Origin: Bongovirus bongo
Taxonomy: Duplodnaviria > Heunggongvirae > Uroviricota > Caudoviricetes > Vilmaviridae
DNA length: 64,000 nt
Strand: one strand, 5' to 3'
Virus record (IMG/VR): IMGVR_UViG_2595698371_000001
Shown: one piece after another, positions 51,475 to 63,915 of the stretch
Layout: each line of letters begins with the position of its first letter
How positions within the stretch are numbered: the first letter of the stretch is position 1
Made by a program: the position numbers and the translations under genes
Notes under the pieces: generated by a model
Databases searched by the model: none
What the model was told of the DNA's origin: nothing
Seen by the model: the letters and a program-made list of their open reading frames with translations, nothing else

Positions 51475-51681
51475 ATGGCCAGTCTCGGTCTGACAGAAGA
51501 AGAGTGGGCTGCCATACGTCGCGAGAACGCTGACAGCCCACCCTTGACTGACGCTCAGGTCAACCGGATCTCAGTCATCGCTGGGCTTATGCCAGTAGAT
51601 GTCGATGTTGTGGCCAAGCGGCAGCTTGGCGGCAGCACGGCCGGTGATCTCGACATGCCGTATCACGATCTTGTCGCATAG
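51475..51681 (+). CDS. possible small protein; doubtful because it overlaps the integrase 3' end convergently
   Basis: 68-aa ORF; 110-nt antisense overlap with the integrase C-terminus. Confidence 0.25.
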   Translation: MASLGLTEEEWAAIRRENADSPPLTDAQVNRISVIAGLMPVDVDVVAKRQLGGSTAGDLDMPYHDLVA

Positions 51682-53041
51682 CTGCTCGATGATGGCCCGC
51701 TTGCGGTCCAGCGGCAGCCCCACCCAGACGGCCTCCAGGTCGTCGTGACCCAGCAGCCCGTCATACACCCGAGACTTGGTGAGGCGGGCTAGCTGGCGTT
51801 CAATCTCCTCCAGCTTCGCGTCGACCTTGTCGCTGGCCTCCTTCACCTGTGCGGGTGTCAGGGTGCCATCGACCAGGGCGTCGGTGAACGAAGCCTTGCG
51901 GGCCCGCAGCGTCTCGGCCTCTGTGTGCAGGGCCTTGGCTTGGTCCGCGTCGGACTTGGTGCCGACAACCCACTTGCGCTCTTCGAGCTTGGCCACGATC
52001 CGCGCCTCGACGTACTTGTCGACCTTCTTGCGTACTCGCGTAACACCGTGGTTGCAGACCTCGTAGCGCTTGCACTTGTAGATCGGCTCGCCGTTGCTGT
52101 TCTTGCTGGCCGACATCCGGTTGCCGCAGTGTCCGCACCGCACGATGCCCGATAGCAGCGTTGTGCGCACCCTGGGGCCCTTTGGGCCGGTGTTCTTGCC
52201 GTCGAGGACCGCTGTGGCCATCGCCCACGTCTCAACGGCCACGATGGGCTCCCAGTCGCCCTCACCGATGATCTCGCCCCTGAAGCGGTACAGGCCCGCA
52301 TAGCGGGGGTTCCTGAGGATGCGGCCGACGACGGTGGCGACGAACGCGTTGCCACGTGGCGTCTTCAGTCCACGGTCGTTCCACTTCTTCGCAATCGAGT
52401 ACAACGTGCATCCGGCGAGCACATCGTCGTAACCCTCGCGGATGGCGGCGGCTTCTTCCGGCACGATCTCACGCACACGGGCCTTGGGGTCATTGGTGTA
52501 GCCGAACGCTGGGGCCCCCAGTGACCGGCCGCTCTCTGCGATCTGCTCGTATGCACGCATCTGCCTGGCTGTCCTGACCTCGCCCTCGTTCTCCGCTACG
52601 GCTGCCAGGATCTTAGCCGTCATGCGGCCTGCGTCGGTGGTGAGATCGATGAGCCCTGTCTGGCACGTCTCGATGGGGATCCGCTTGCCGTTCTTGTTGA
52701 CGCCCTGGATCAGGTCGATGAGCGGCAGCAGGGACTTCATCTTGCGGTAGAGCCGGTCGGAGCGCCACGTGATGATGGCGTCGATGCGGCCGTCGCGGAT
52801 GTCCTCGCACATCTGCTCGTACGCTTCGCGGCGCACGTTCTCTTTGACGGCGCTGCGGTCGTTGTCGACGTAGAGCACGGGATCCCAGCCGAGGCGCTCG
52901 CACAGGGCGACGCAGTCCTCGCGTTGGCGGTCGATGCCCAGCTCTTTGTCGGTGGACATGCGGAGGTAGACCGCAGCCCTCAGCCGGGGCGGCGCGACGA
53001 CCTGTGGTGGGGTCTCAAGGGTTGCTGTCATGGGTGCCATC
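51571..53041 (-). CDS. int: large serine recombinase (serine integrase)
   Basis: N-terminal resolvase catalytic domain (AAVYLRMSTD...R..Q); recombinase domain; zinc ribbon (CGHCG...C..C); coiled-coil region; start ATG 53041 or 53032. Confidence 0.85.
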
Positions 53042-53076
53042 TTACTGCATTGATGCAGGTAGATAAAGGGCACCCA
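53033..53076. promoter_or_regulatory. candidate attP core or integrase operator: imperfect inverted repeat around a non-palindromic central TG
   Basis: GGGTGCCATCTTACTGCAT-TG-ATGCAGGTAGATAAAGGGCACCC; arms CTGCAT/ATGCAG are exact and GGGTGCC/GGGCACCC match at the outer ends; overlaps the int start codon. Confidence 0.35.
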
Positions 53077-53111
53077 AACATGTTAGGTAGGAAAACTATG
53101 TAATTTGAGAC

Positions 53112-53142
53112 AAAAAAGGGGTGGCCGGATGCACCCCCTCGA
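53112..53142 (-). terminator. rho-independent terminator (leftward) ending the small-gene operon before int
   Basis: on the minus strand, GGGGTGCATCCGGCCACCCC followed by TTTTTT. Confidence 0.5.
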
Positions 53143-53165
53143 GTGCACCCGGCCTGGTCCCTCTT

Positions 53166-53417
53166 CTAGCCGCCGAGAGCGACGACACGGCGAGCGTCAG
53201 ACAGGTGGAATCCACCGCACCGGCACTCGTACACCCCCTGGGGGATGCGGTTCTTCTTGGTGTGTTTGTTGCGGGTCAGGATGTCGGTCACCACGCGGTG
53301 CGCCTCAGCAGCGGTGGTGTATCGGTCCTTCCACGGGTTCGGGCAGGCCCTGCGGTGCACCCGGTAGACGTGGGCGGGCATGGGGATATTGGGGGCCTTG
53401 AGCAGTGCGAGCGCCAT
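53166..53417 (-). CDS. hypothetical protein with a C-terminal CxC zinc knuckle
   Basis: 83-aa ORF. Confidence 0.45.
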   Translation of the reverse strand: MALALLKAPNIPMPAHVYRVHRRACPNPWKDRYTTAAEAHRVVTDILTRNKHTKKNRIPQGVYECRCGGFHLSDARRVVALGG

Positions 53418-54344: not shown

Positions 54345-54368
54345 TCTCCTGTAATCGCAGGTCAGCCC
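54345..54368 (-). promoter_or_regulatory. composite AB motif (minus strand: GGGCTGACCTGCGATTACAGGAGA)
   Basis: about 35 bp upstream of the leftward gene start at 54308; orientation follows transcription. Confidence 0.5.
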
Positions 54369-54961: not shown

Positions 54962-55070
54962 GATTCCCTTCGCCTACCAGCGGGTTCGTGACGCCCGCCG
55001 TGACCGATAAACGTTGCTGAACACAGCAGAAGGGCACCGGATCGGCTGACCCGGTGCCCTTCCTCCCTAC

Positions 55071-60991: not shown

Positions 60992-61069
60992 GAGAAATTC
61001 CCTTCTCCGTGTGTGTGGTCTGAGTTGACCAGCGGCAGCACTGCAATGCAGTGCTACCTACCTACCGAC

Positions 61070-61291: not shown

Positions 61292-61377
61292 GTTCTCTAT
61301 CCCTTCCGTGTGTTTGCTGCCTAAGCAGACAAGCGGCAGCACTGGACACGGATGCCCAGTGCTGCCTTCCAATCGGC

Positions 61378-62106: not shown

Positions 62107-62819
62107 TGCTCTATTCCCTTCCGTGTGGTACGGGGCACCAATTGGCACACCCAATAGGGCACACGGATGAGAAGTGACTCCTCACCCGTGTGCCCGATGA
62201 GTGCCCCTAAGTGACATTGATCGAGATCAATGCCCACTAAGGGCACCGTAAGTTCACACTTGGAAGATTAGGAAAAGAGAGACGAGTCCGACTGACCTAG
62301 CACACGTGCCGCACGCCCCATAGCCTCTCGTAGGCGTAGCTAATGCGGGAATCTGCTAGGTGTCCCTTGCCACAATTGCCCTGGTAGACGGCCATATCGC
62401 ATGCCGACGTTCCCACTTCTACGACTCTCACGTAGGGGTACGACCAGGGAATGTGAGTCGTCGGCCGTTTGCAGTGCGCAAAAAACATGCACCGCCGGTA
62501 CCGACTCCCATTGTGGGGACTCACGACGCGCCCACTTCCGGACCTCTGGGCAGACTTCACCCACCAGGCCATACCTCGCGCGTCACACTATGGAGTTCTC
62601 AAACAACGTTTAAGGACACGTCGCAGCCGACGCCAGTCCCGCACGCCCGTAGGCCATGCGATTTGCGGGTACTACTCCTTTCTGAAGGCAATGTTGTAGA
62701 AGGCGCTCCCGGTCCCCCCCTTGCGGGGGGGGCGGTGCGTCGAACAAGGAGAACGTTACGGCCAGGGTGGTCAGCAAACAAGTAGGGGGGGCATTGTTTC
62801 GGGCACCAAAACGGCTAGT

Positions 62820-63915
62820 TGCGAGGCTGTGACCTGCAGGAATATGAGTTTCTGTGACGTACATCACACAGTGGATTTTGGGCCTACAGCAAACAAGCCT
62901 CTGACCTGGGGTTTTAGGTAAAAGCGCAGGTCAAAGCACATACATAGAAAAACCTATATATTAGCTAGGCTTGCAAACACCAAAATGCCCTGTGACCTGC
63001 AGAAACTTTTTTCTAGCAACGTAGTTAACTATGTGCGTTTTGGGCCCGAAATCAGCGTCAAGCGTACCCCGTTTGACCTGCGGTTTCTCCACATATGCCC
63101 TGGTAGCGAGTTTGTCAGGACAAACACCCAAAAATGGCCAAAAATTTGCTAGCAAATCCGAAAATCACTCATATTCGTTCATGTCGATATACGCATATCT
63201 GCTGGTAGACGCGGTTTCAAGGGTCGAAAGTCGGTCTACAGCTGCAGTTGGCAGCCCAGAATTTTGGGTGGTTTCGACGGGTACAGCTAACCCTGTTTAT
63301 GCAGGTGGGAGGCCATAGCAAACACTGTGTTTCGGGGCATGCCAGAACGGCCGATATGCGCGGATGCGGGTAGGTGAGGTTAGGCAACCCTTAGTGCTAC
63401 CTGGTCAACCTGGTCTGCGGACACGCGTATGTGGGACGGTGCGACGCAACGGGGCATTGCGGGCCCCTAGCGTCCACACAGACGGCCGAACGGGGCACGG
63501 TGCGATGGATCGCTTGGGTGAGTCCATCTCGATCGCTTAGAACGGCTCTGAGAGCTTCGAGGACGACCGGGCCGCGCAAATACACCCTTCCAACCCTGCC
63601 TGTCAAGCGTCTGTGACCATTGCCTCAACAGGGTTGACAGCAGTGCGTGACATGTGGTATCAGGAGGCCAGCTAACAGTGGTTAGCAGTGCTAACGCTGA
63701 CTGGAGTCAGTAGAGCTACCAGGAACGATGATTCACATGATCTGCAAAAGCCCAGGACAACGGTGCATATGCGAGATCTGCAGCGTGTGACCTGCATCGA
63801 TGCGACACACAAACCAACACGTTGCGACGTGCACACAGACCAGCTAACACGTCACGTGAGTTAGCTGCAGCAAACCCAAGATCCAGCAAAAACCTGCTTT
63901 GACCTGCGGAAACGT
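62820..63915. repeat. right-end cluster of at least 7 A-motif sites (TGACCTGCR, often TTTGACCTGCGG) in an otherwise ORF-free, lower-GC region
   Basis: copies at 62830 (TGACCTGCAGG), 62903 (TGACCTGGGG), 62925 (reverse complement, GCGCAGGTCAAAG), 62994 (TGACCTGCAG), 63072 (TTTGACCTGCGG), 63786 (TGACCTGCATCGATGCG) and 63898 (TTTGACCTGCGGAAAC). Confidence 0.6.

What the first reader, a model, noticed from the sequence alone, without database searches (positions are those of the whole stretch)
53033..53110. Imperfect inverted repeat around a central TG at the integrase start: attP core or an int operator
GGGTGCCATCTTACTGCAT-TG-ATGCAGGTAGATAAAGGGCACCC has exact inner arms (CTGCAT/ATGCAG), matching outer arms (GGGTGCC/GGGCACCC) and a non-palindromic central dinucleotide. 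This is the geometry of serine-integrase att sites, and it lies in an AT-rich gap directly 5' of int, overlapping its ATG. The inner half (A)CCTGCAT also resembles the A-motif TGACCTGCR, and the right-end site TGACCTGCATCGATGCG repeats CTGCATYGATGC. So it could instead, or also, be an operator that couples int expression to the same regulator.
Basis: partly seen in the sequence, partly recalled or inferred. Interest (0 to 1): 0.55.

Follow-up and report, generated by a model that had tools for sequence, protein, structure and literature searches.

The report
Integrase promoter palindrome, not attP
The inverted repeat at the start of the integrase gene of mycobacteriophage PegLeg is real, but it sits in the gene's own promoter and is not the phage attachment site, which comparative evidence places 9.2 kb away, so the finding is largely ordinary.

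Summary
The window is Mycobacterium phage PegLeg (Cluster M1), record bases 16956-80955. The repeat exists as described: CTGCAT-TG-ATGCAG (53045-53058), extendable to 10/12 arms, plus a perfect 8-bp outer pair (53031-38 / 53069-76). The outer pair is offset 4 bp from the inner centre.

It is not attP. Two papers state that Cluster M attP lies more than 8 kb from int. I found a far better site at 62201-62246: 22-nt arms around an invariant GA, with both arms co-varying in six lineages (11 of 22 positions compensatory). It occupies the same position as attP in two MabI prophages whose junctions are known.

At the int site, the inner palindrome occurs only in M1 phages and fills the least conserved 22 bp of the gap. 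What is conserved is TANNAT (TAAGAT), 7 nt, then ATG. This holds in five M. smegmatis Cluster M lineages and, with 7-8 nt spacing, in two MabI prophages. It fits a mycobacterial -10 element driving a leaderless int mRNA.

The dyad spans -33 to -8. It is most plausibly an M1-specific operator, though a chance palindrome is nearly as likely. The proposed link to the TGACCTGCR motif is not supported.

The parts
51571..53031 (-). int, large serine integrase (PEGLEG_134, 486 aa)
   Evidence: Annotated in KC900379. Pfam Resolvase + Recombinase + Zn_ribbon_recom, all above the curated cut-offs.
53029..53031 (-). Annotated int ATG; predicted +1 of a leaderless int mRNA (inferred)
   Evidence: ATG lies 7 nt after a conserved TANNAT in five Cluster M lineages, and 7-8 nt after it in two MabI prophages. 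No AGGA, GGAG or GAGG occurs upstream.
53032..53038 (-).
   Evidence: Conserved as G(G/A)CACC(C/T) in all lineages. The changes in Reindeer and the Rey group break pairing with the other arm.
53039..53044 (-). Predicted -10 hexamer TAAGAT (positions -13 to -8)
   Evidence: TAAGAT / TAGAAT / TATGAT in Cluster M and TACAAT / TATTAT in MabI: T1, A2, A5 and T6 are invariant while the middle varies. TANNAT occurs at only 2.1e-4 per position in this genome. In M. smegmatis, ANNNT lies at -6 to -13 in 79% of promoters and 24% of transcripts are leaderless (PMC6448022).
53045..53058 (.). Inner perfect palindrome CTGCAT-TG-ATGCAG (positions -27 to -14), found only in M1 phages
   Evidence: Absent in Reindeer, Nanosmite, Rey, Aziz and Estes. 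Only 41.7% of inner-helix cells pair across lineages, which is the level of the slid controls.
53039..53064 (.). Extended dyad ATCTTACTGCAT-TG-ATGCAGGTAGAT (10/12), positions -33 to -8; candidate M1-specific operator
   Evidence: I3. The position relative to the predicted promoter is computed from the sequence.
53067..53078 (-).
   Evidence: TTT(G/C)(G/A)GTGCCCT is present in all lineages, always exactly 22 nt upstream of the TANNAT hexamer.
53112..53154 (-). Intrinsic terminator ending the upstream gene 135 transcript, so that int has its own promoter
   Evidence: 14-pair stem with 10 G-C pairs, followed by a T-run. A hairpin plus T-run is conserved in all lineages and in MabI.
62201..62246 (.). 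Most likely true attP: GTGCCCCTAAGTGACATTGATC-GA-GATCAATGCCCACTAAGGGCAC, 9.2 kb from the int ATG
   Evidence: 22-nt arms, 17/22 complementary, 2-nt centre. Across six lineages the GA is invariant, 78.8% of cells are complementary, 11 of 22 positions changed on both sides, and the covariation score is 0.261 against 0.126 in shuffles (0 of 500). It is followed by the block TCACACTTGGAA that also follows the junction-defined attP of prophiGD54-2 and prophiGD86-1. DNA fold z = -6.41.
63790..63803 (+). Second exact copy of ACCTGCATCRATGC, inside a TGACCTGCA motif near the right genome end; possible second site for the same factor
   Evidence: These are the only two zero-mismatch hits in the window, and the left 17 kb has none. 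It is M1-specific: Reindeer has TGACCAGCACCAAC there.

Best explanation
The repeat lies in the private promoter of the PegLeg serine-integrase gene. Reading leftward, gene 135 ends in a strong intrinsic terminator. About 80 nt of AT-rich DNA follows. It carries a conserved element TTTGGGTGCCCT (-47 to -36), a 22-nt spacer of fixed length but free sequence, a -10 hexamer TAAGAT (-13 to -8), 7 nt (GGCACCC) and then the int ATG. The int mRNA is therefore probably leaderless.

They happen to be reverse complements of each other in M1 phages. The inner palindrome fills the free spacer and runs into the -10 hexamer, and it exists only in M1 phages (PegLeg, Bongo and relatives at least 99% identical). 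My committed reading is that it is a lineage-specific operator: a dimeric DNA-binding protein bound there would block RNA polymerase and shut off int. A second copy of its half-core, ACCTGCATC(A/G)ATGC, lies near the right genome end.

It is not attP. Int most likely recombines at 62201-62246, just upstream of the first gene of the long leftward operon.

What is shown: the sequence anatomy, the conservation pattern, the lack of arm covariation at the int site and the strong arm covariation at 62201-62246. What is inferred: the transcription start, any protein binding at the dyad, and recombination at the distal site.
For: Identity: the window is 100% identical to PegLeg KC900379.

Promoter:
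- A terminator lies directly upstream.
- TANNAT at a fixed 7 nt before the ATG occurs in PegLeg, Bongo, Reindeer, Nanosmite, Rey, Aziz and Estes. It is also present in the 40-43%-identical MabI integrase loci, as TACAAT-N7-ATG and TATTAT-N8-ATG.
- The background frequency of TANNAT is 2.1e-4 per position.
- M. smegmatis promoter and leaderless-transcript statistics come from PMC6448022.
- The spacer is exactly 22 nt in every lineage, although its sequence is unrelated between lineages.

Dyad:
- 10/12 arms.
- Composite fold z = -4.96 as RNA and -4.48 as DNA.
- A second exact ACCTGCATCRATGC lies in non-coding right-end DNA and is also M1-only.

Not attP:
- Literature.
- No covariation at the int site: score 0.085 against 0.075 in shuffles, with 186 of 500 shuffles at least as high.
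- The distal site scores 0.261 against 0.126, with 0 of 500 shuffles as high and 11 of 22 compensatory positions.
- Positional orthology to two junction-defined MabI attP sites.
Against: - No transcription start, binding protein or expression data exist for any Cluster M phage in the material I could reach.
- The dyad occurs in one lineage only. All M1 genomes are at least 99% identical here, so conservation cannot separate function from accident.
- Palindromes of this quality occur at about 11 loci in the window.
- Sharing a 14-mer with at most 1 mismatch somewhere else in 128 kb has a chance of roughly 0.1-0.3 by my estimate.
- Cluster M phages are reported to be homoimmune (Pope et al. 2014 abstract, from memory; the paper is not held). 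A dyad missing from Rey therefore cannot be the shared immunity operator.
- The distal attP is inferred from comparison. I could not read the primary mapping paper or find a lysogen contig.
Confidence: 0.5

Rival explanations
1. Accidental palindrome. The region is the int promoter, as above, but the M1 dyad is a chance product of a fast-evolving, sequence-free 22-nt spacer and has no function of its own.
For: The spacer is the least conserved part of the gap, and every lineage has a different sequence there. Comparable palindromes occur at about 11 loci in the window. Part of the right arm (TAAGAT) is fixed by the promoter anyway. Other lineages show no significant fold: z = +1.3, 0.0, -1.1 and +1.2.
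Against: For this particular stretch of about 20 positions, the chance of a perfect 6+6 core with 10/12 arms is of the order of 1e-3, judging from the rates. The composite fold beats all 200 shuffles. A second exact 14-mer copy exists in regulatory DNA and is also M1-only.
Confidence: 0.3
2. RNA hairpin. In transcripts that read through the gene 135 terminator, or that start further upstream, the composite repeat folds into a -26 kcal/mol stem-loop that buries the int AUG. Int would then be translated only from the leaderless transcript.
For: The minimum-free-energy structure pairs UGUUUGGGUGCC with GGCACCCAUGACA, covering the start codon, with z = -4.96. The outer stem is mostly invariant across lineages, with 87.5% of cells paired.
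Against: The RNAalifold covariation term is a penalty of +1.2, and no pair in the outer stem is kept through a change on both sides. The Reindeer and Rey-group changes break pairs. The orthologous RNAs do not fold better than shuffles. A strong terminator lies just upstream. If the mRNA is leaderless, the hairpin is not in it. No Rfam family reaches its threshold.
Confidence: 0.1
3. Pseudo-att site for autoregulation. Int binds this site because it mimics an att half-site (GTGCC-N9-CATTGAT, as in both arms of the 62201-62246 site) and so represses its own promoter.
For: GTGCCNNNNNNNNNCATTGATC with up to 1 mismatch hits only the two distal attP arms and the int site. Both int half-sites match attP half-sites at 14 of 22 positions. 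GTGCCCTT is shared.
Against: Matches of 14/22 or better are common genome-wide: 16-26 at exactly 14 and several at 15-16. The pattern was chosen after seeing the match. Other lineages show no own-attP versus own-promoter resemblance, scoring 11-12 of 22, no better than cross-lineage pairs. The Reindeer attP arms changed to (A/G)TGGCC while its int promoter kept GTGCCC. GTGCCCYT is not significantly enriched: 10 hits against 5.4 expected.
Confidence: 0.05
4. attP core. Int recombines at the TG of this repeat with a host attB.
For: It is an imperfect inverted repeat with a non-palindromic central dinucleotide next to a serine-integrase gene.
Against: Cluster M attP is stated to be more than 8 kb from int. 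The outer arms are 12 and 16 nt from the centre, so the site is not symmetric. The inner arms are missing in all non-M1 lineages, and there is no covariation. A co-varying site positionally orthologous to known attP sites exists elsewhere. Integration here would cut the int gene off from its promoter.
Confidence: 0.03

Closest known systems
attP sites of large serine integrases (Bxb1, phiC31; and the junction-defined attP of Cluster MabI prophages prophiGD54-2 and prophiGD86-1)
   Same: An imperfect inverted repeat about 46 bp long with a non-palindromic central dinucleotide, in a phage that encodes a Resolvase/Recombinase/Zn-ribbon integrase.
   Different: The two layers of symmetry are offset by 4 bp. 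The inner arms are confined to one lineage and do not co-vary. Literature and comparison put the real attP 9.2 kb away, at 62201-62246. That site does behave like the MabI attP sites: symmetric arms, the crossover dinucleotide at the symmetry centre, and the same flanking block.
Mycobacterial SigA-type promoters that produce leaderless mRNAs (TANNNT -10, no -35 consensus; PMC6448022)
   Same: TAAGAT lies at -13 to -8 relative to the ATG. There is no Shine-Dalgarno tetramer and no conserved -35 hexamer. The hexamer pattern T-A-N-N-A-T is conserved across seven divergent loci.
   Different: The start site has not been mapped. A conserved block at -47 to -36 (TTTGGGTGCCCT) is not part of the general mycobacterial promoter model.
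Promoter-overlapping repressor operators of temperate phages (for example lambda OR/OL, or the mycobacteriophage L5 gp71 operator at Pleft)
   Same: A dyad-symmetric site of about 26 bp lying over the spacer and the -10 hexamer of a promoter for a lysogeny gene.
   Different: There is no known cognate protein. There is one copy plus at most one related copy, rather than a regulon. It is absent from Cluster M phages that are reported to share immunity with M1 phages.
Cluster M repeat TGACCTGCGATTACAGRA / TGASCTGCR
   Same: It shares ACCTGCA. One family member at the right end (63788-63805) also shares ACCTGCATC-ATGC.
   Different: The int site is not within 3 mismatches of the 18-nt consensus. 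It has 2 mismatches to the 9-mer core, like 471 other places in the window. The motif is conserved across Cluster M, while the int dyad is not.

Membership tests
Large-serine-integrase attP | A cognate large serine recombinase is encoded by the element | tested here: met
   Pfam Resolvase (87.9 bits), Recombinase (57.7) and Zn_ribbon_recom (37.9).
Large-serine-integrase attP | Two half-sites symmetric about one non-palindromic central dinucleotide over about 40-50 bp | tested here: not met
   The inner arms centre on TG 53051-52, but the outer arms lie 12 and 16 nt from it. In the frame that aligns one half with the distal attP, the other half matches only 7 of 22 positions by my own hand count of the sequences.
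Large-serine-integrase attP | Both arms are kept symmetric as the integrase diverges (dyad covariation among relatives) | tested here: not met
   inner helix 41.7% paired, with slid controls at 31-38%; covariation score 0.085 against 0.075 in shuffles (186 of 500 as high). For contrast, 62201-62246: 78.8% paired, 11 of 22 positions compensatory, 0 of 500 shuffles as high.
Large-serine-integrase attP | Prophage junctions (attL/attR) map to the site | not testable with these tools
   No lysogen or close prophage contig was found. Secondary literature says Cluster M attP is more than 8 kb from int. The primary paper is not held.
Promoter-overlapping operator | Dyad symmetry of a size that fits a dimeric DNA-binding protein | tested here: met
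   12-nt arms, 10/12 complementary, 2-nt centre.
Promoter-overlapping operator | Overlap with core promoter elements | tested here: inconclusive
   The dyad spans -33 to -8 of a promoter that is predicted from conservation but has not been mapped.
Promoter-overlapping operator | Recurrence at other regulated promoters, or conservation among phages that share the regulator | tested here: not met
   There is one exact palindrome in the window, one related 14-mer at 63790 and none in the left 17 kb. It is absent from all non-M1 lineages.
Promoter-overlapping operator | A cognate DNA-binding protein | not testable with these tools
   No repressor has been identified for Cluster M or MabI ('repressor location ... 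is unclear', PMC8092301).
TGACCTGCR / TGACCTGCGATTACAGRA repeat family | Match to the family consensus | tested here: not met
   The 18-mer with up to 3 mismatches gives 6 hits, none of them at int. The int site reads CTACCTGCA, 2 mismatches to the 9-mer; 471 places in the window are at exactly 2 mismatches, against 12 exact hits.
Mycobacterial leaderless promoter | ANNNT/TANNNT at -6 to -13 and no Shine-Dalgarno sequence before the start codon | tested here: met
   TAAGAT at -13 to -8. No AGGA, GGAG or GAGG in GCAGTAAGATGGCACCC. The pattern is conserved in seven loci. Criteria are from PMC6448022.
Mycobacterial leaderless promoter | Transcription starts at the start codon | not testable with these tools
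   This needs 5' end mapping. No Cluster M or MabI transcript data were found.
Structured regulatory RNA | A stable fold that is conserved or co-varies among relatives | tested here: not met
   PegLeg z = -4.96, but Reindeer +1.31, Nanosmite -0.04, Rey -1.08 and MabI +1.16. The RNAalifold covariation term is +1.2. No Rfam family comes near its threshold.

The most novel reading that the evidence does not exclude
M1 phages have evolved a private control layer on int. One version is that the dyad and its right-end twin (ACCTGCATCRATGC) bind an M1-specific factor, or Int itself through att half-site mimicry (GTGCC-N9-CATTGAT), so that integrase synthesis is switched by occupancy of a site laid over its own leaderless promoter. 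The other version is that the -26 kcal/mol hairpin silences int on read-through transcripts, so that only the leaderless transcript is translated. Either would be an undescribed way of regulating a serine integrase.
Probability: 0.08. Interest if true: 0.45.

Novelty: new member of a known kind. Interest (0 to 1): 0.18.

Why it matters
The main value is corrective. Anyone building an integration vector or predicting prophage ends for Cluster M phages from the 'attP sits next to int' rule would pick this repeat and fail. The comparative data point to 62201-62246 instead.

The conserved TANNAT-N7-ATG layout suggests that integrase genes of this phage group are expressed from their own leaderless promoter behind a terminator. 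That is directly testable and would be useful for understanding how these phages, whose repressor is still unknown, time integration.

The M1-only dyad is a small, cheap target for a reporter or gel-shift experiment. By itself it is not surprising.

Tried and rejected
- Primary paper. Pope et al. 2014 (J Virol 88:2461), which maps Cluster M integration, is not held. Two reviews I tried are also not held. I relied on later papers that cite it.
- Lysogen or close prophage contigs. The integrase found no relative in genome contigs. Exact-protein look-ups with three alternative starts found nothing. Viral contigs returned only the same Cluster M phages. Junctions could therefore not be read directly.
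- attB search. The short common cores expected for serine integrases (5-8 bp in MabI) cannot meet the 14-base exact-pattern requirement, so I did not spend the remaining genome scan.
- Direct similarity between the reconstructed MabI attP and PegLeg: none, as expected at 40% integrase identity. Positional orthology through the flanking block TCACACTTGG worked instead.
- A conserved island at 62729-62783 (91% identical to Nanosmite) was considered as attP and dropped, because it has no dyad symmetry.
- Att half-site mimicry at the int promoter was rejected as unsupported.
- A-motif membership was rejected.
- Coding potential of the 500-aa GTG-start version, as annotated in Reindeer: the extension is open in several lineages but has an in-frame TGA in Nanosmite and no synonymous bias (my reading), so I treat it as non-coding.
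- Rfam: nothing near threshold.
Full report
**Identity and setting.** The window is Mycobacterium phage PegLeg (Cluster M, subcluster M1). A 2.1-kb query around the finding is 100% identical to KC900379 and NC_021299, and window coordinate + 16955 gives the record coordinate, so the window runs to the right genome end. Fifteen further records (Bongo, LilhomieP, Skinny and others) are at least 99.3% identical here. Reindeer, Nanosmite and the Rey group (Rey, Aziz, Estes, MrMagoo, GenevaB15, GardenSalsa) are 77-82% identical. The gene to the left is PEGLEG_134, a serine integrase on the minus strand, annotated 51571-53031, with Resolvase, Recombinase and Zn_ribbon_recom domains.

**The observation.**
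- The repeat finder gives inner arms 53039-53050 / 53053-53064 (10/12 complementary, the inner CTGCAT/ATGCAG exact) around TG 53051-52.
- It also gives a perfect outer pair, TGGGTGCC 53031-38 and GGCACCCA 53069-76.
- The gap is AT-rich, 41.6% GC against 61.7% for the window.
- The outer arms lie 12 and 16 nt from the TG, so the inner and outer symmetries are offset by 4 bp.
- Palindromes of the inner type are not rare. There are 15 hits at about 11 loci in the window against a mean of 4.2 in Markov simulations. The degenerate pattern gives 6 hits against 3.0 expected.
- The composite repeat folds better than all 200 shuffles, both as RNA (-26.2 kcal/mol, z = -4.96) and as DNA (z = -4.48).

Its significance rests on its location rather than on its rarity.

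**Comparison with relatives.** I aligned the int-upstream gap of PegLeg, Bongo, Reindeer, Nanosmite and Rey and later added Aziz and Estes. The pattern is sharp.
- A terminator hairpin plus T-run, and a block TTT(G/C)(G/A)GTGCCCT, are conserved in all.
- Next comes a stretch of exactly 22 nt with unrelated sequence in each lineage.
- Then comes TA(A/G/T)(G/A)AT, then G(G/A)CACC(C/T), then ATGAC.
- The inner palindrome sits in the 22 free nucleotides and exists only in M1.
Where they vary (Reindeer GAGTGCC / GACACCC; the Rey group GGCACCT), the changes break complementarity rather than restore it.
- Counted formally, the inner helix is complementary in 41.7% of cells, the level of the slid controls (31-38%). 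The whole structure has a covariation score of 0.085 against 0.075 in shuffles, with 186 of 500 shuffles at least as high.
- The orthologous RNAs do not fold better than shuffles: z = +1.31, -0.04 and -1.08, and +1.16 for a MabI prophage.

**What the conserved part is.** The hexamers TAAGAT, TAGAAT and TATGAT keep T1, A2, A5 and T6 and vary in the middle, and always lie 7 nt before the ATG. Two Cluster MabI prophages of M. abscessus are organised like Cluster M (PMC8092301), and their integrases are only 40-43% identical to PegLeg's. They have the same layout: a terminator, about 70 nt, then TACAAT-N7-ATG (prophiGD54-2) or TATTAT-N8-ATG (prophiGD86-1). TANNAT occurs at 2.1e-4 per position in this genome. 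No AGGA, GGAG or GAGG precedes the ATG. In M. smegmatis, 79% of promoters carry ANNNT at -6 to -13 and most of these are TANNNT. No -35 consensus exists, and 24% of transcripts are leaderless (PMC6448022). I therefore infer a private int promoter with +1 at or next to the A of the ATG at 53031, placed behind the strong terminator at 53154-53112. On that numbering the discriminator GGCACCC is -7 to -1, TAAGAT is -13 to -8, the perfect palindrome is -27 to -14, the extended dyad is -33 to -8, and the conserved upstream block is -47 to -36.

**Is it attP? No.**
[quoted passage not shown] PMC9934374 says the same of Cluster M. Both cite Pope et al. 2014, which I could not open.
- Looking at least 8 kb from int, the repeat finder reports a 46-bp site at 62201-62246: GTGCCCCTAAGTGACATTGATC-GA-GATCAATGCCCACTAAGGGCAC, with 22-nt arms, 17/22 complementary, and a 2-nt non-palindromic centre. 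It lies 9,192 bp from the int ATG and about 95 bp upstream of gene 159, the first gene of the long leftward operon that ends with int.
- It is a conserved island in otherwise diverged non-coding DNA.
- In Reindeer, Nanosmite, Rey, Aziz and Estes the central GA is invariant, and each lineage keeps its own dyad symmetry (16-18 of 22) although the arm sequences differ.
- Counted formally, 78.8% of cells are complementary, against 37-41% when the partner is slid. Eleven of 22 positions changed on both sides, and the covariation score is 0.261 against 0.126 in shuffles, with 0 of 500 as high.
- The two MabI prophage records begin and end at the att junctions, with a 5-bp core repeated at both ends. 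Rejoining the ends gives classical attP sites whose symmetry centre falls inside the core. Each is followed within 0-7 nt by the block TCACACTT(A/G)G...AGGAAGG. The same block (TCACACTTGGAAGATTAGGAAAAG) follows the PegLeg site after 7 nt, and also follows the sites in all the other Cluster M lineages. A hairpin precedes the site in every case.

This positional orthology to junction-defined sites, together with the dyad covariation, makes 62201-62246 the likely attP. It remains an inference until junctions are read. I found no lysogen or close prophage contig.

**Is it an operator?** The dyad lies exactly where a repressor would block RNA polymerase, and it runs into the -10 hexamer. A second exact copy of ACCTGCATCRATGC lies at 63790-63803, in the non-coding right end. 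That copy is also M1-specific, since Reindeer has TGACCAGCACCAAC there. The left 17 kb of the genome has none. This is suggestive only. By my estimate, a 14-mer match with at most 1 mismatch somewhere in 128 kb has a chance of about 0.1-0.3, and all M1 genomes amount to a single observation. Because Cluster M phages are reported to be homoimmune (from memory of the Pope et al. abstract), a dyad that Rey lacks cannot be the shared immunity operator. If it is functional, it is a lineage-specific addition.

The link to the 'A-motif' fails. That motif is a real family: TGACCTGCR gives 12 hits against 1.8 expected, and TGACCTGCGATTACAGRA gives 6 hits against 0.05 expected. The int site is not within 3 mismatches of the 18-mer, and it has 2 mismatches to the 9-mer, like 471 other places in the window.

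**A resemblance I followed and dropped.** Both arms of the distal attP read GTGCC-N9-CATTGATC, and the int site reads GTGCC-N9-CATTGATG. Both int half-sites match attP half-sites at 14 of 22 positions. This suggested that Int might bind its own promoter. However:
- matches of 14/22 are common genome-wide (16-26 of them, with several at 15-16);
- the pattern was chosen after the fact;
- no other lineage shows an own-attP to own-promoter resemblance (11-12 of 22, no better than cross-lineage pairs);
- Reindeer changed its attP arms to (A/G)TGGCC while keeping GTGCCC at the promoter.

I keep this idea only as a low-probability rival.

**Verdict.** The repeat is real. It marks the int promoter and the start of a probably leaderless int mRNA. 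Its outer arms are conserved promoter-flanking blocks. Its inner palindrome is an M1-only dyad that is either a lineage-specific operator (my committed reading, about 0.4) or an accident (about 0.3). The attP reading is contradicted by the literature and by comparison, and a much better attP candidate lies at 62201-62246. The finding is ordinary and scores low. The attP localisation and the conserved leaderless-promoter layout are the useful by-products.

Noticed in passing
window 62201-62246 (flanks 62157-62195 and 62254-62283): Likely true attP of PegLeg: 22-nt arms around an invariant GA, with both arms co-varying in six Cluster M lineages. It is preceded by a strong hairpin (DNA fold z = -6.1) and followed by the block TCACACTTGGAAGATTAGGAAAAGAGAGA, which also follows the junction-defined attP of two MabI prophages.
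   Followed up: yes
window 20004, 20894, 43563, 44532, 48039 (+) and 54347-54364 (-): An 18-nt repeat, TGACCTGCGATTACAGRA: five exact copies plus one with 2 mismatches, against 0.05 expected. It lies mostly just after gene ends and contains an AGGAGA-like stretch. It is probably one of the Cluster M regulatory repeats. Its function is unknown.
   Followed up: partly
window 62830-63908: Six copies of TGACCTGCR in the last 1.2 kb of non-coding DNA between the likely attP and the right genome end, including an inverted pair at 62906-62933. Every Cluster M lineage has 4-6 copies of TGASCTGCR in its last 1.9 kb. They could be iterons, packaging sites or other protein-binding sites.
   Followed up: partly
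window 58371, 59379, 60008, 60366, 60695, 60999 (+ strand): TCCCTTCTCCGTGTGTG is repeated six times, against 0.25 expected. Its reverse complement, CACACACGGAGAAGGGA, lies just upstream of successive small leftward genes, like a start-associated ribosome-binding repeat.
   Followed up: partly
window 61034-61058 and 61335-61366: Two related hairpins (GGCAGCACTG...CAGTGCTGCC/ACC) in consecutive intergenic gaps of the leftward operon. They could be terminators or processing sites.
   Followed up: no
window 55029-55064: A G+C-rich hairpin, GAAGGGCACCGG...CCGGTGCCCTTC, between genes 139 and 140. It shares the GTGCCCTT octamer seen at the int promoter and at the attP arm.
   Followed up: no
window 53166-53417 (-), gene 135: An 83-aa protein encoded directly upstream of int. 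It is conserved in all Cluster M lineages and detectably in MabI prophages (tblastx), is cysteine-rich and has no Pfam match. Its fixed position next to int makes it a candidate directionality factor or regulator.
   Followed up: partly
L002 1668-3170 (Reindeer MT658803, gene 133): The Reindeer integrase is annotated as 'tyrosine homologous recombinase', with a 500-aa GTG start, although it is 81.5% identical at the DNA level to the PegLeg serine integrase. This is probably a mis-annotation of both the name and the start.
   Followed up: partly
window 53057-53067 and 53085-53095: A direct repeat, AGGTAGATAAA / AGGTAGGAAAA, 28 nt apart (TTT(A/T)(T/C)CTACCT on the int strand). The upstream copy is conserved across Cluster M. 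The downstream copy lies in the M1-specific spacer, so part of the M1 spacer may be a local duplication.
   Followed up: no
L012 237-3943 (PegLeg record 1-4 kb, outside the window): Eleven leftward genes, including one for an Lsr2-like protein, lie between the left genome end and the terminase genes. They match the leftward block that sits between attL and the terminase genes in MabI prophages. In the prophage, these genes and the right-end repeats would therefore be separated from the int operon by the host junction.
   Followed up: no
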